64,000 nucleotides of DNA from Gammaproteobacteria bacterium. Lineage in GTDB: Bacteria; Pseudomonadota; Gammaproteobacteria; Coxiellales; Coxiellaceae. Position numbers and translations under genes: made by a program. This document shows positions 56,144 to 59,007 of this stretch, piece after piece. The first letter of the stretch is position 1. Each line of letters begins with the position of its first letter. The notes under the pieces were generated by a model. That model saw only the letters and a list, made by a program, of their open reading frames with translations, was not told the origin of the DNA and did no database searches. Where the stretch lies: the NCBI GenBank assembly GCA_023266215.1, contig JAHFRQ010000011.1, positions 1,735-65,734 on the forward strand. The letters are read 5' to 3'.

Positions 56144-57204
56144 TATTATTGGATCGCTATATTCGACGCGAAGTCATTTGGGCAACGTTATTTGTGAGCC
56201 TTGTATTAATTGCGATTCAGAGTTTTTTGATGTTTATGCAGCAATTGCACGATCTGGGGCAAGAACAATATGGCTTGTTTCAAGTATTTATGTACGTGCC
56301 GATGCAAATGCCAACTCAGTTTTATCAGCTATTTCCCATCGCAGGATTTTTAGGATGTTTAATCGGTCTGGGCCGTTTGGCGCAAAGTAGTCAGCTGATC
56401 GTGATGCGTGCCTCAGGCGTTTCGATTGCGCGAATTGCATGGAGCGTTATTAAAACAGCTGTTTTAATGATTATTGTGGTGACCGTGATTGGCGAAGGCT
56501 TGGGACCGATTTGGCAGCAAAAATCTGAGTTGATGCGGCAGCTGGCGTTGCATACGATTTCAAGCACGGGCTTGGTGCAATCGGTGTGGCTGCGTGAAGA
56601 TAATGTTTTCACGCATATTCAACAAATAGAAACAGATACTAAAATTTCAGGATTAACGCGCTATCATTTTAATGCGCAAGGCTTAATGCAAAAAGCAACT
56701 TATGCTGACGCGGGTAAATTAATTAATGATCAGTGGGAATTGCAAAATTTAAAAACGACCGATTTTCACAAGCATCACACGACATCTTACGCGCAATCTC
56801 AAGCGCATTTAAAATTATTATTAAATCCAAATCTACAAGTGCAAATGGAAATGGGATTAACAGAGCAATCCATCACTGATTTGTATCACACGATTCAATA
56901 TCGTCAATCCATTGGATTGAGCGCGAATCAACTTATTTTTTCATTATGGCAGCGAATATTCCAGCCACTTACCTCACTGATTATGATTAGTTTAGGCGTA
57001 TTATTTGTTTTTGGTGCGCTGCGAAGTTCCAGCATGGGATCGCGTGTTTTAATGGGCGTGATTTTAGGTTTTGGTTTCTATATGTTGAATCAACTTTTTG
57101 GCCCCATATCGCTGGTTTATCAATTTCCGCCCATACTTGCCGCCGCAACACCCACGCTGATTTTTCTCGTCATATTTCTCGCGCTGCTGGGTCGGGTAAG
57201 GTGA
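56140..57204 (+). CDS. lptG: LPS export ABC transporter permease LptG
   Basis: MILLDRYIRREV..., LGRLAQSSQLIVMRASG and SLWQRIFQPL parallel E. coli LptG. Confidence 0.9.
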   Translation: MILLDRYIRREVIWATLFVSLVLIAIQSFLMFMQQLHDLGQEQYGLFQVFMYVPMQMPTQFYQLFPIAGFLGCLIGLGRLAQSSQLIVMRASGVSIARIAWSVIKTAVLMIIVVTVIGEGLGPIWQQKSELMRQLALHTISSTGLVQSVWLREDNVFTHIQQIETDTKISGLTRYHFNAQGLMQKATYADAGKLINDQWELQNLKTTDFHKHHTTSYAQSQAHLKLLLNPNLQVQMEMGLTEQSITDLYHTIQYRQSIGLSANQLIFSLWQRIFQPLTSLIMISLGVLFVFGALRSSSMGSRVLMGVILGFGFYMLNQLFGPISLVYQFPPILAAATPTLIFLVIFLALLGRVR

Positions 57205-57209
57205 GTTTT
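57187..57209 (+). repeat. Direct repeat DR1 (the actual lptG 3' terminus)
   Basis: CTGGGTCGGGTAAGGTGAGTTTT matches 58985-59007 (CTGAGTCGGGTGAGGTGAGTTTT) at 21/23. Confidence 0.75.
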
Positions 57210-57234
57210 TTTAAAAATAACCGTAAAGCTTGCT

Positions 57235-57276
57235 ATTGGTTTGAAGGAACCGCGAATATAGCCTTGTACGCGGATT
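57235..57276 (-). repeat. Family-2 repeat, copy C (left inverted repeat of the ATPase cassette)
   Basis: ATTGGTTTGAAGGAACCGCGAATATAGCCTTGTAC (57235-57269) is the perfect reverse complement of 58862-58896. Followed by GCGGATT. Confidence 0.85.
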
Positions 57277-57311
57277 CCTCCCGGGAAATTTTAGTAAATT
57301 AAAGTTGTATC

Positions 57312-57404
57312 GGATCCGCAAATCGACATTTGTGGATTTACGGATCCAAAAATAGGGTGTAAAATGGATCCACAAATCGACATTTGTTAATTTACGGATC
57401 CAAA
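57312..57404 (+). promoter_or_regulatory. Two 39-bp repeat units, each a GGATCC-bracketed palindrome (operator-like)
   Basis: GGATCCGCAAATCGACATTTGTGGATTTACGGATCCAAA (57312-57350) and GGATCCACAAATCGACATTTGTTAATTTACGGATCCAAA (57366-57404). 54-bp period. The second unit ends at the first base of the ATPase ATG (57404-57406). Confidence 0.6.
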
Positions 57405-58837
57405 TGGCAAAATTTATCGGCAGAAAAGATGAAATAAACAAGCTCTTAGCGCTCACAAAAAAGAAAACGGCTTCTTTTGTTGTTCTGCGCGGCAGACGAC
57501 GTATTGGGAAAAGTCGGTTAATCGATGAAATCAGTCAGCATTTCGATCATTACTATAGCTTTGAAGGCTTGGCGCCCGAAGAAGGTGTCACAGCAAAAGA
57601 TCAGCTTGAAGAATTCTCAAGGCAAATGACTCAGCAGTTTGCACTTCCTTTTTCCATCTATAATGACTGGAGCGATGCTTTTTGGGCGATGGGAGAACGC
57701 GTTAAAACTGGAAAAATCTTAATACTATTTGATGAGATTTCTTGGATGGGCATGGATGAGCCTACCTTTTTGCCGAAAATTAAAAATTGCTGGGATAAAT
57801 ACCTCAAAAAAAATGATCAACTTATGTTTGTGGTGTGTGGCTCAGCTTCCGCTTGGATTGAAAAAAATATTTCAAACAGCACCGGATTTGTCGGACGTAT
57901 TTCATATACATTAACGCTTAAAGAATTGCTTTTATCAGACTGCATTCAGTTTTGGCCAAAAAATATTGCCGTTTACGAAAAATTAAAAATTCTATCCATA
58001 ACGGGCGGCATTCCAAAATATCTAGAGGAAATAAATGCAAAATTATCTGCCGAAGAAAATATTAAGCAGCTTTGTTTTACGCGCGGCGCCATTTTGGTAA
58101 AAGAATTCGAGCAGATATTTTCCGATTTTTTTATGCGTAAAAGCCCGCTGTACAAAAAGATTATTGAGTCACTGGTTTCTGGTCCAAAAGAAAGAAATGA
58201 GATTTGTAATTTATTAAATATTGATCCGGGCGGACGAATATCAGATTATCTTGAGGAGCTTGAGCTGTCAGGCTTTATTTCTCGAGATTACACGTGGGAT
58301 ATCGCATCGGGCAGTGATGCAAAATTAAGTCAGTATCGATTAAGCGATAATTATTTGCGATTTTATTTAAGATACATCGGTAAAAATTTAACGAAAATTA
58401 ATCGTGATAACTTTAATTTTAAATCGTTAAATTCACTGCCAGAATGGAATAGTATAATGGGTTTGCAATTTGAAAACCTGATTTTAAATAACAGATCGCT
58501 TATTCATCACGCGCTCAATATTAATCCTGACGATATTATTTCTGAAAATCCATTTTATCAACGTAAAACTGACCGGTTTTCAGGCTGTCAAATTGATTAT
58601 ATGATTCAAACGAAATTTAACACATTATATATTTGTGAAATTAAATTTTCTAAAAACCAAATTGATTCATCTGTGATTAATGATGTTCAGAAAAAAATAG
58701 ATGCTTTGAATTTCCCCAAAGGCTACTCTTGCCGACCCGTTTTAATTCACGTTAATGGTGTGACACAAGATTTGAAAGAGAATGATTATTTCACCGCCTT
58801 AATTGATTTTTCAGAGCACCTGAATTTGAGCGAATAA
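57404..58837 (+). CDS. AAA+ ATP-binding protein (PF01637 ATPase plus DUF234-like C-terminal domain)
   Basis: FIGRKDEINKL...VVLRGRRRIGKSRLI (P-loop) and ILILFDEISWM (Walker B). 477 aa. Confidence 0.75.
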   Translation: MAKFIGRKDEINKLLALTKKKTASFVVLRGRRRIGKSRLIDEISQHFDHYYSFEGLAPEEGVTAKDQLEEFSRQMTQQFALPFSIYNDWSDAFWAMGERVKTGKILILFDEISWMGMDEPTFLPKIKNCWDKYLKKNDQLMFVVCGSASAWIEKNISNSTGFVGRISYTLTLKELLLSDCIQFWPKNIAVYEKLKILSITGGIPKYLEEINAKLSAEENIKQLCFTRGAILVKEFEQIFSDFFMRKSPLYKKIIESLVSGPKERNEICNLLNIDPGGRISDYLEELELSGFISRDYTWDIASGSDAKLSQYRLSDNYLRFYLRYIGKNLTKINRDNFNFKSLNSLPEWNSIMGLQFENLILNNRSLIHHALNINPDDIISENPFYQRKTDRFSGCQIDYMIQTKFNTLYICEIKFSKNQIDSSVINDVQKKIDALNFPKGYSCRPVLIHVNGVTQDLKENDYFTALIDFSEHLNLSE

Positions 58838-58840
58838 AAA

Positions 58841-58909
58841 AATCCGCTCATTTCGCCTTGAGTACAAGGCTATATTCGCGGTTCCTTCAAACCAATAGTA
58901 AATTAAAGT
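58841..58909 (+). repeat. Family-2 repeat, copy B (right inverted repeat of the ATPase cassette)
   Basis: Starts 3 nt after the ATPase stop. AATCCGCTCATTTCGCCTTGAGTACAAGGCTATATTCGCGGTTCCTTCAAACCAATAGTAAATTAAAGT. Imperfect hairpin CCGC...GCCTTG-AGTA-CAAGGC...GCGG. Confidence 0.85.
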
Positions 58910-58984
58910 GATACAGGTTGAAAAAAATTTATGCAAATTAAGGCGATTAAGGCTTGTCTGACAAGTTTCTGACAAGTTTTTCTA

Positions 58985-59007
58985 CTGAGTCGGGTGAGGT
59001 GAGTTTT
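58985..59007 (+). repeat. Direct repeat DR2 (duplicate of the lptG 3' terminus)
   Basis: 21/23 identity to 57187-57209, including a TGA at the same relative position. Confidence 0.75.

What the first reader, a model, noticed from the sequence alone, without database searches (positions are those of the whole stretch)
57187..59007. A 1.8-kb AAA-ATPase cassette at the lptG 3' end, bounded by a duplication of the lptG terminus and carrying perfect 35-bp inverted repeats
The last codons of lptG plus 5 nt (CTGGGTCGGGTAAGGTGAGTTTT, 57187-57209) recur at 58985-59007 (21/23). The intervening 1775 bp therefore looks like an insertion that regenerated the gene end. Inside it, a single DUF234-type ATPase gene is flanked by a perfect 35-bp inverted repeat (57235-57269 versus 58862-58896). 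A 14-bp direct repeat TAGTAAATTAAAGT is also present (57292-57305 and 58896-58909). No recombinase is encoded. A second ATPase of the same family sits at the window start (1-766). Inference: this is a recombinase-less mobile cassette that targets a conserved gene end, or one mobilised in trans.
Basis: partly seen in the sequence, partly recalled or inferred. Interest (0 to 1): 0.7.

Follow-up and report, generated by a model that had tools for sequence, protein, structure and literature searches.

The report
One-gene defence-candidate insertion beside lptG
A single horizontally acquired gene for a candidate anti-phage ATPase-nuclease, carrying its own promoter, sits just after the essential gene lptG and left a decayed copy of the lptG end behind it, but the perfect inverted repeat around it is two copies of a host hairpin repeat, not transposon ends.

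Summary
All the reported repeats are real. The lptG terminus recurs at 58985-59007 (21/23), and a gapped alignment extends this to about 47 nt (score 44.5 against a null of 15.4±2.8). It is not a member of the dispersed "family-1" repeat. The inverted repeat is 37 nt perfect (40 nt at 98%).

The inverted-repeat arms and the 14-bp direct repeat belong to a roughly 90-nt hairpin repeat family that I call X. X has four copies in the window; the other two are solo copies beside unrelated genes. No target duplication abuts the arms.

The gene matches the PADLOC candidate defence family PDC-S27 over its full length (E=3.6e-89). It combines an ORC/STAND-like AAA+ ATPase with an invariant D…ExK nuclease motif. 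Its DUF234 score is below the Pfam cutoff. The ATPase at the window start is only a distant relative.

Relatives that are 48-76% identical occur as lone genes in unrelated contexts across several phyla, without recombinases. Flanking inverted repeats are not a feature of the family. Flanking direct repeats are enriched (6/62 against 2/166, p=0.006). They include two clean analogues that duplicate a tRNA-Val 3' part and another gene's in-frame 3' end.

56 of 78 loci carry twin palindromic operator-like units about 54 bp apart upstream of the gene.

Verdict: a real insertion of a known candidate family by a recombinase-less route. No empty site was found.

The parts
56140..57204 (+). lptG (LPS export permease). 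This is the intact gene whose 3' end is duplicated.
   Evidence: Pfam LptF_LptG, E=5e-65. It has the same 354-aa length and the same C-terminal pattern (LLxRxR*) as the 77%-identical relative.
57162..57209 (+). E1: the functional lptG terminus (last codons, TGA stop, and 5 nt). This is the left copy of the direct repeat.
57209..57298 (-). X1: an inverted 'orphan' copy of the ~90-nt hairpin repeat family X. It fills the spacer between the lptG stop and the ATPase promoter and contains the left inverted-repeat arm (57230-57269).
   Evidence: nhmmer E=2.7e-20 with the 4-copy profile; alignment A2.
57312..57347 (+). Operator-like palindromic unit 1 (GGATCCGCAAAT-N12-ATTTACGGATCC). It overlaps a -35-like hexamer, TTTACG, at 57337-57342.
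   Evidence: Direct-repeat family D1; promoter scan; twin units found in 56/78 homologous loci.
57360..57365 (+). -10-like hexamer TAAAAT, lying between the two units.
   Evidence: consensus match only.
57366..57401 (+). Operator-like palindromic unit 2. It lies 54 nt after unit 1 and ends 2 nt before the ATG.
57404..58837 (+). PDC-S27-type ATPase-nuclease gene (477 aa). It has an ORC/Cdc6/STAND-like AAA+ domain with a winged helix, followed by a C-terminal D398...E412-x-K414 PD-(D/E)xK-type motif.
   Evidence: PADLOC PDLC04984, E=3.6e-89, residues 1-456; Pfam ATPase_2; invariant residues; AlphaFold model with pLDDT 73, whose top Foldseek hits are ORC/Cdc6, PAB2304, SSO1545 and NLRs.
58835..58921 (+). 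X2: a copy of repeat family X that starts 4 nt after the ATPase stop codon. It contains the right inverted-repeat arm (58862-58901) and the second 14-bp direct repeat.
   Evidence: nhmmer E=2.6e-23. On the minus strand it folds at -23.9 kcal/mol (z=-2.8) and is followed by a U-run.
58957..58978 (+). 11-nt tandem duplication, TCTGACAAGTT x2, at the junction just before and overlapping the start of E3.
   Evidence: Read directly from the sequence.
58965..59007 (+). E3: the displaced, decaying copy of the lptG terminus. Its last 7 codons are still in frame (LLSRVR* against LLGRVR*); upstream of that it is frameshifted by indels of 1 and 4 nt.

Best explanation
What it is (shown): a self-contained one-gene accessory module lies immediately 3' of lptG. 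It consists of a promoter embedded in two 36-nt palindromic operator-like units 54 bp apart, followed by a 477-aa PDC-S27-type protein. That protein has an ORC/STAND-like AAA+ ATPase, a winged helix and a PD-(D/E)xK-type nuclease motif. A displaced, decaying copy of the last ~45 nt of lptG lies on its far side.

How it got there (inferred): the module arrived by horizontal transfer without any recombinase of its own and without conserved end sequences. The lptG end most likely served as the homology for recombination. One route is a single (Campbell-type) crossover of a circular fragment carrying the gene plus an lptG end. The other is homology-facilitated illegitimate recombination with DNA from a relative that already carried the gene beside lptG. 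Either route leaves one allele of the gene end intact and the other stranded downstream.

What the inverted repeat is (shown, with inferred role): the perfect 37-bp inverted repeat is not part of that mechanism. It is two oppositely oriented copies of a lineage-specific ~90-nt REP-/terminator-like hairpin repeat (X) that occupy the two spacers beside the module. Once the X copies are subtracted, the module is as tight as its analogues elsewhere: 13-18 nt, operators, ORF, then about 40 nt. The X copies probably act as transcriptional insulators or 3' hairpins.

What the gene does (inferred from family membership only): it is an autoregulated nucleotide-switch sensor coupled to a nuclease effector, acting against phages or other invading DNA.
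For: Duplication:
- It is significant and specific to the lptG end.
- 2 of the 3 coding differences between the copies are synonymous, and the stop codon is kept (sequences).

Patchy distribution:
- lptG relatives at 77% and 65% identity carry other cargo, or nothing recognisable, downstream. One has a PIN/Phd toxin-antitoxin pair and AbiEii.
- The nearest ATPase relatives (75-76% identity) lie beside efflux genes, biotin genes or unknown genes.
- The 79 genome loci span Legionellales, Coxiella, Rickettsiales, Chlamydiae, Dependentiae and Verrucomicrobia.

Recurrent footprint in other genomes:
- Flanking direct repeats of at least 40 bits occur in 6/62 ATPase loci against 2/166 control ORFs (Fisher p=0.006).
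- In L020 a 76-nt perfect repeat (14 nt of flank plus 62 nt of tRNA-Val) brackets only the ATPase.
- In L019 the repeat is the in-frame 3' end of a YdjM-like gene. Its displaced copy encodes VSHIVLDLELKGALFIRK*, against VSHVVLDIGLKKALFIRK* in the intact gene.
- There is no integrase near L019, L020 or L067.

X repeat family:
- It has 4 copies. Two are solo, beside a RhuM gene and a racemase-like gene.

Gene identity. PDC-S27 is described as an ATPase fused to a PD-(D/E)xK domain and is not yet validated experimentally (PMC12988326).

Twin operators: found in 56/78 loci against 3/78 shuffled controls, with spacing of 53-56 nt in 55 of the 56.
Against: - No empty site was found. Every same-strain metagenome contig carries the insertion.
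- The GC content of the gene is not anomalous: 35.4% against 36.8±3.2%.
- Only about 10% of homologous loci show flanking direct repeats. Some of these have other origins: tandem duplication in L057 and paralogous vapBC-resolvase modules in L008.
- The shared identity in the window (at most 11 uninterrupted nt) is short for RecA-dependent recombination.
- Two of the four X copies lie within 1.6 kb, bracket the gene symmetrically, and are the only pair sharing 37 identical nt. That is unlikely to be pure coincidence and is not explained by the insertion model.
- Identical proteins of two family members each occur in a single genomic context across 21-23 contigs. There is therefore no sign of current mobility.
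Confidence: 0.6

Rival explanations
1. One reading: X1-ATPase-X2 is a non-autonomous mobile insertion cassette. Its 37-40-bp terminal inverted repeats are recognised in trans by a transposase, for example a RAYT/IS200-IS605-like enzyme that also spreads the solo X copies.
For: - The inverted repeat is perfect over 37 bp.
- The two X copies bracket the module tightly and symmetrically with heads facing in, 13 nt from operator 1 and 4 nt from the stop codon.
- Two of only four copies in 64 kb lie 1.6 kb apart.
- From my own knowledge, not tested here: RAYT genes are typically flanked by inverted REPs.
Against: - No target duplication abuts the arms. The flanks read ...AAAGC|TTGCT and AGTAA|ATTAAAG.
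- The arms lie inside the lptG-end duplication, not outside it.
- The other X copies are solo and sit next to unrelated genes.
- There is no second copy of the unit in the 64-kb window or in the ~10 kb of extra same-strain contig.
- Flanking inverted repeats are not enriched around homologues.
- No transposase, integrase or RAYT was found among about 35 window ORFs scanned.
- The X core is absent from the JGI metagenomes as a repeat; all 34 hits are unrelated coding sequence.
Confidence: 0.12
2. The module is the remnant of a larger integrase-borne island, comparable to a CIME (cis-mobilisable element). An element carrying a tyrosine recombinase integrated at the lptG 3' end, creating the attL/attR direct repeats. 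Reductive evolution then deleted everything except the selected cargo gene.
For: - Direct repeats that duplicate a gene or tRNA 3' end are the classical footprint of integrase-mediated integration (established knowledge).
- L020's repeat covers the tRNA-Val 3' part.
- The hosts are reduced-genome intracellular lineages.
Against: - In the window (after subtracting X) and in L019, L020 and L067, the repeats hug the gene on both sides: 8-40 nt after the stop codon and 24-50 nt before the operators. Independent random deletions would not be expected to produce this.
- No integrase pseudogene or other remnant lies between the repeats.
- The repeats and element ends share no common core motif across loci.
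- There are no integrases nearby.
Confidence: 0.15
3. There was no insertion. The ATPase is a long-standing resident, and the downstream lptG-like stretch arose by local duplication or slippage, or by chance resemblance to G-rich repeats.
For: - The composition of the gene is not anomalous.
- All sampled strains carry it.
- The lptG end has some resemblance to the GGGTCGGGGTGAGGG part of family-1 repeats (E1 against family-1 scores up to 28.5).
Against: - E3 against E1 scores 48.5, while E3 against family-1 scores 17-21.
- Shuffle controls never reach the observed score.
- The gene is absent downstream of lptG in the nearest available relatives.
- The gene family is patchily distributed across phyla at 48-76% identity.
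Confidence: 0.08

Closest known systems
PDC-S27 (PADLOC 'phage defence candidate', a single-gene system) / COG1672-type 'archaeal ATPase' (Pfam ATPase_2 with a DUF234 PD-(D/E)xK domain)
   Same: There is a full-length HMM match (E=3.6e-89). The architecture is the same, an ATPase fused to a PD-(D/E)xK-type domain (PMC12988326; PMC3424549). The fold is closest to ORC/Cdc6 and to the archaeal ATPases PAB2304 and SSO1545.
   Different: Nothing differs at the protein level. Anti-phage activity has not been shown for the family (PMC12988326). I did not find the twin-operator promoter or the target-end duplications described in the papers I read.
CIMEs / integrase-less genomic islets flanked by att repeats (cis-mobilisable elements of streptococcal ICEs; from my own knowledge)
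   Same: The unit lacks a recombinase and is bounded by direct repeats that duplicate the 3' end of a conserved gene.
   Different: It carries a single gene. No cognate integrase-bearing element is known. No att core is shared between loci. Repeat length ranges from 22 to 76 nt, with allelic-type divergence between copies.
Mobile insertion cassettes (MICs) and MITEs with passenger genes (from my own knowledge)
   Same: One passenger gene lies between perfect inverted repeats and there is no transposase.
   Different: No abutting target-site duplication is present. The arms belong to a repeat family whose other members are solo hairpins at gene ends. The unit has only one copy.
REP / REPIN extragenic palindromic repeats (from my own knowledge)
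   Same: The X family is short (~90 nt), hairpin-forming, intergenic, multi-copy and lineage-specific. It begins 4-9 nt after stop codons.
   Different: Only 4 copies are visible in the data held here. No RAYT was found in the ORFs scanned. This similarity applies to the inverted-repeat arms, not to the gene.
Free-standing homing-endonuclease genes that carry a replacement 3' end of the host gene (for example the Allomyces mitochondrial atp6 case; from my own knowledge)
   Same: A nuclease-encoding ORF lies just after a gene, with the displaced original 3' end remaining downstream as a pseudo-terminus.
   Different: There is no evidence that the ATPase-nuclease cleaves target sites. Insertion sites differ between genomes. 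This comparison is speculative.

Membership tests
PADLOC PDC-S27 | Full-length match to the family HMM | tested here: met
   PDLC04984, E=3.6e-89, 297.8 bits, protein residues 1-456 on model positions 1-457 of 474.
PADLOC PDC-S27 | ATPase domain fused to a PD-(D/E)xK nuclease-type domain | tested here: met
   ATPase_2 scores 60.7 bits. Walker A GRRRxGKS and Walker B FDEIS are invariant, as are D398, E412 and K414 at the C-terminus across 24 homologues. The AAA+/winged-helix fold is confirmed. The nuclease fold itself is inferred from the motif only.
PADLOC PDC-S27 | Protects against phage | not testable with these tools
Pfam DUF234 (PF03008) | Score at or above the gathering threshold | tested here: not met
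   16.9 bits against a cutoff of 22.5, E=0.0089, residues 321-417. The 'DUF234-type' label is therefore only weakly supported.
Mobile insertion cassette / MITE-type non-autonomous transposon | Terminal inverted repeats that define the element ends | tested here: inconclusive
   A 37-bp perfect inverted repeat is present. However, the arms are members of a dispersed family whose other copies are solo.
Mobile insertion cassette / MITE-type non-autonomous transposon | Target-site duplication directly abutting the inverted repeats | tested here: not met
   The flanks of the arms do not repeat. The only direct repeat lies 20 nt and 80 nt outside the arms.
Mobile insertion cassette / MITE-type non-autonomous transposon | Additional copies of the unit, or a cognate transposase, in the genome | tested here: inconclusive
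   None were found in the 64-kb window plus ~10 kb of a same-strain contig, and there was no transposase among about 35 ORFs scanned. The whole genome was not available.
Integrase-type islet / CIME | Direct repeats duplicating the 3' end of the target gene | tested here: met
   There are analogues in L019 and L020.
Integrase-type islet / CIME | A conserved att core or element ends shared by family members, with a cognate integrase somewhere | tested here: not met
   The repeats and cassette ends of the window, L019, L020 and L067 share no motif. No integrase is adjacent. A trans-acting integrase elsewhere in the genome could not be tested.
REP/REPIN-like repeats (applies to the inverted-repeat arms only) | Multi-copy, intergenic, hairpin-forming short repeat | tested here: met
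   There are 4 copies, nhmmer E from 2.6e-23 to 4.6e-19. All are intergenic, and 3 of 4 begin 4-9 nt after a stop codon.
REP/REPIN-like repeats (applies to the inverted-repeat arms only) | Associated RAYT (Y1 transposase) in the genome | not testable with these tools
   The whole genome is not held. None was found among the ORFs scanned.

The most novel reading that the evidence does not exclude
PDC-S27 modules (twin operators plus the ATPase-nuclease gene) may be semi-autonomous selfish cassettes. Their own PD-(D/E)xK nuclease and DNA-binding ATPase would promote insertion next to gene or tRNA 3' ends, producing variable-length duplications of the target end. That would be a recombinase-independent, homing-like mode of mobility for a supposed defence gene. 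The tight, recurrent 'gene only' footprints in the window, L019, L020 and L067 would be its signature.
Probability: 0.08. Interest if true: 0.8.

Novelty: new member of a known kind. Interest (0 to 1): 0.4.

Why it matters
The gene belongs to one of the most abundant but untested candidate defence families.

Three observations may be useful to people who study defence-gene mobility:
- The gene travels as a minimal, recombinase-less unit of promoter plus gene.
- It leaves duplicated gene or tRNA ends in several unrelated intracellular lineages.
- It carries a strongly conserved twin-operator architecture with 54-bp phasing. This gives a directly testable handle on its regulation: autorepression by its own winged-helix domain.

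For this locus specifically, the main result is corrective. The eye-catching perfect inverted repeat is host repeat DNA, not transposon ends.

Tried and rejected
1. Empty-site search.
- The closest lptG relatives (77%, L085/L086; 65%, L087) share no DNA downstream of lptG, so they say nothing about an empty site.

2. X-core 18-mer in the JGI metagenomes.
- All 34 hits are unrelated coding sequence and none is an X family member. This scan led nowhere.

3. Apparent alternative junction in contig L002.
- The first 68 nt of L002 do not match the window, but they are Illumina adapter sequence.

4. Extension of the duplication past E3 ('X3', 59008-59041).
- It is marginal (P≈0.05) and I did not rely on it.

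5. E3 as a family-1 repeat fragment.
- Rejected. E3 scores 17-21 against family-1 and 48.5 against E1.

6. Flanking inverted repeats as a family trait.
- Rejected. The L084 'inverted repeat' is a third operator palindrome. The L063 one is a local GC-rich repeat.

7. Recent mobility.
- Identical proteins P0047 and P0074 each occur in a single genomic context across 21-23 contigs.

8. Plasmid or phage vehicle.
- The best plasmid hit is 46% identical and the best phage hit 29%.

9. Integron attC reading.
- The junction sequence GTTATTG does not fit the GTTRRRY core site, and there is no intI gene. This was read from the sequence and not tested further.

10. Sequence search of the PDB with the family profile found no hits.

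11. My first operator-finding script was too strict. It was replaced by the one.

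
Full report
**1. Observation.**

The repeats are as described.
- The 23-mer at 57187-57209 recurs at 58985-59007 with 2 mismatches. These are the only two matches in the 64 kb at up to 3 mismatches, where 0.00 are expected.
- It extends ungapped to 26/30.
- With gaps it extends to 57162-57209 against 58965-59007. 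The score is 44.5 against a shuffle mean of 15.4±2.8 and a maximum of 27.5.
- The 35-mer inverted repeat is perfect. It extends to 37 perfect, or 40 nt at 98%.
- The 14-bp direct repeat is present.
- The only credible ORF between the direct repeats is 57404-58837.

**2. The gene.**

- Pfam places it in ATPase_2 (60.7 bits). DUF234 reaches only 16.9 bits, below the 22.5 cutoff.
- PADLOC matches the candidate single-gene defence family PDC-S27 over the full length (E=3.6e-89).
- A 24-sequence alignment shows invariant Walker A and B motifs and an invariant D398...E412-x-K414 motif.
- An AlphaFold model (pLDDT 73) is closest to ORC/Cdc6, the archaeal ATPases PAB2304 and SSO1545, and plant NLR NB-ARC modules.
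- The literature read describes PDC-S27 as an ATPase fused to a PD-(D/E)xK domain, abundant but not experimentally validated (PMC12988326). DUF234 is listed among the PD-(D/E)xK families (PMC3424549).
- The ATPase at 1-766 (minus strand) shares only the P-loop with it, although it also falls in ATPase_2.

**3. The inverted repeat is host repeat DNA.**

A sensitive search with the flanks found further copies at 12933-13024 and 38676-38762. An alignment of the four copies and an nhmmer profile built from it define a ~90-nt family that I call X.

Its structure is:
- a hairpin, ATCCGC-[variable inner hairpin]-GCGGTT;
- followed by CCTTCAAACCAATAGTAAATTAAA;
- followed by an A/T-rich tail.

Three further points follow.
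- Three of the four copies start 4-9 nt after the stop codon of a co-oriented gene. These genes are a RhuM-family gene, an Asp/Glu-racemase-like gene and the ATPase.
- X1 (57209-57298, minus strand) is an orphan copy lying tail-to-tail with the lptG stop.

No target duplication abuts the arms. The X core 18-mer occurs in the JGI metagenomes only inside unrelated coding sequence, so the family is specific to this lineage.

X1 and X2 face the gene head-in, and they are the only pair sharing 37 identical nucleotides. This non-random arrangement remains unexplained. Recent duplication or gene conversion between them is possible.

In the sense in which each X copy faces outward from the gene, it looks like a hairpin followed by a U-rich tract. 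X2 on the minus strand folds at -23.9 kcal/mol, z=-2.8. The pair could therefore insulate the module from transcription entering from either side. This is an inference.

**4. The lptG-end duplication is specific.**

E3 (58965-59007) scores 48.5 against the lptG end. It scores only 17-21 against the G-rich family-1 repeats elsewhere in the window.

The last seven codons of E3 remain in frame: LLSRVR* against LLGRVR* in lptG. Two of the three coding differences are synonymous. Further upstream, indels break the frame.

**5. Is it an insertion?**

No empty site could be found.
- Same-strain metagenome contigs are 100% identical through the cassette.
- The nearest lptG relatives (77% and 65% amino-acid identity) have unrelated DNA downstream of lptG. 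One of them carries a PIN/Phd toxin-antitoxin pair and AbiEii there.

The case for insertion therefore rests on four lines of evidence:
- the duplication itself;
- the variability of the region downstream of lptG in relatives;
- the patchy, cross-phylum distribution of the gene, at 48-76% identity across Legionellales, Coxiella, Rickettsiales/Midichloriaceae, Chlamydiae, Dependentiae and Verrucomicrobia;
- the unrelated contexts of its nearest relatives.

GC content gives no signal.

**6. Comparative test of the cassette idea.**

Across 62 homologous loci with adequate flanks, flanking inverted repeats are not enriched. Flanking direct repeats of at least 40 bits are enriched: 6/62 against 2/166 control ORFs in the same loci (Fisher p=0.006).

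Two cases mirror the window closely.
- In L020, a perfect 76-nt repeat brackets a 1.6-kb segment that contains only the ATPase. The repeat comprises 14 nt of flank plus 62 nt of the 3' part of tRNA-Val.
- In L019, the repeat is the 3' end of a YdjM-like gene. Its displaced copy still encodes a conservatively diverged, in-frame terminus.

L067 has a 57-nt intergenic repeat.

Other cases have different origins.
- L057 is a tandem duplication, with a remnant of a second ATPase copy.
- L008 has two ATPase paralogues among vapBC modules and a serine recombinase.

No integrase is adjacent to L019, L020 or L067. The repeats and cassette ends share no motif between loci.

In all clean cases the repeats hug the gene, 8-40 nt after the stop codon and 24-50 nt before the operators. 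The window fits this pattern once the two X copies are subtracted.

Identical proteins of two family members each occur in one context only across 21-23 contigs. There is thus no sign of ongoing transposition.

**7. A conserved promoter architecture.**

Immediately upstream of the ATG the window has two 36-nt palindromic units (57312-57347 and 57366-57401). A -35-like hexamer lies inside unit 1, and a -10-like hexamer lies between the two units.

- 56 of 78 homologous loci have such a repeated unit, against 3 of 78 shuffled controls.
- The spacing is 53-56 nt in 55 of those 56 loci, although the arm sequences differ between taxa.
- Unit 1 lies largely upstream of the putative transcription start. 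A DNA operator is therefore more likely than an RNA structure, probably bound by the protein's own winged-helix domain. This is an inference.

**8. Mechanism.**

The best-supported reading is a horizontally acquired, self-contained one-gene module that was integrated without a dedicated recombinase, using the lptG end as homology. Two routes fit.
- A single crossover of a circular fragment.
- Homology-facilitated illegitimate recombination with donor DNA from a relative.

These routes account for four features:
- the intact and the displaced gene end;
- the allelic-type differences between the two copies;
- the variable repeat length among loci;
- the absence of conserved element ends.

These steps are inferred, not shown.

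The transposon/MIC reading of the inverted repeat, a decayed integrase island, and 'no insertion' are the rivals. I put them at 0.12, 0.15 and 0.08.

**9. Verdict.**

The gene is a new member of a known candidate defence family. The perfect inverted repeat is explained by a host repeat family.

The recurrent target-end duplications and the twin-operator architecture are modestly novel side results that deserve a larger survey.

Noticed in passing
window 57312-57401, and loci L006-L084 upstream of the ATPase start: Twin ~36-nt palindromic operator-like units flank the promoter. They are present in 56/78 homologous loci (3/78 when shuffled), with an almost invariant spacing of 53-56 nt even though the arm sequences differ between taxa.
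   Followed up: partly
window 59027-59614; L001 11625-11725: The DUF559 gene (59162-59560) lies between 82-nt inverted arms (90% complementary) of a palindromic family-1 element. In the otherwise 100%-identical metagenome contig the same position holds an uninterrupted ~100-nt palindrome without DUF559. That contig then continues into tamB rather than the fused aspartokinase-type / diaminopimelate decarboxylase-type gene on the minus strand at 59615-62194 (identity assumed, not tested). This is either a structural variant or an assembly chimera, and it raises the question whether DUF559 nucleases are linked to these MITE-like repeats.
   Followed up: partly
window 12933-13024 and 38676-38762: These are two further copies of the X hairpin repeat. 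One begins directly after a RhuM-family gene. The other begins directly after an Asp/Glu-racemase-like gene and lies next to a family-1 repeat.
   Followed up: yes
window 38603-38649, 40441-40487, 51060-51074, 59066-59105, 59536-59575: These are family-1 G-rich hairpin repeats (CTCTCCC...GGGAGAGGGTCGGGGTGAGGG). The copies at 38603 and 40441 are identical over at least 47 nt.
   Followed up: partly
window ~36650-52180, compared with L085 3631-6809: In the closest relative, fur lies directly next to valS. In the window about 15.5 kb of extra genes sit between them. These include two Vut_1 transporters, a methyltransferase, an S24/LexA-like regulator, a permease and beta-lactamase-like fragments. 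This makes it a large variable region.
   Followed up: no
window 767-900 and 1027-1320: The distant ATPase_2 gene at 1-766 (minus strand, weak PDC-S01-like hits) has its own upstream array of TGCGTTATAC-type repeats. A small CopG-antitoxin-like ORF follows divergently.
   Followed up: no
L002 1-68: The public metagenome contig ERZ27276474:k141_5035710 begins with 68 nt of Illumina adapter sequence fused to the locus. This is contamination, not biology.
   Followed up: yes
L008 2410-8221; L057 2245-7667: L008 has two ATPase paralogues interleaved with two vapBC pairs and a serine recombinase. A 27-nt perfect repeat there covers the recombinase start and the vapC end. L057 has a 337-nt duplicated 5' end of a uvrD-like gene and a remnant ATPase C-terminus, which indicates tandem duplication.
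   Followed up: partly
L084 5857-5938 and 7460-7487: In one chlamydial-type MAG a third copy of the operator palindrome lies 32-59 nt downstream of the ATPase stop codon. This mimics a flanking inverted or direct repeat.
   Followed up: no
loci L006-L084 (record titles): The closest homologues are concentrated in lineages that, from my own knowledge rather than any test here, are amoeba-associated or intracellular: Legionellales, Coxiella, Midichloriaceae/Rickettsiales, Chlamydiae, Dependentiae, Francisellaceae and Finniella. Neighbouring genes include eukaryote-like ankyrin, F-box and SET proteins. This suggests gene exchange within a shared host niche.
   Followed up: no
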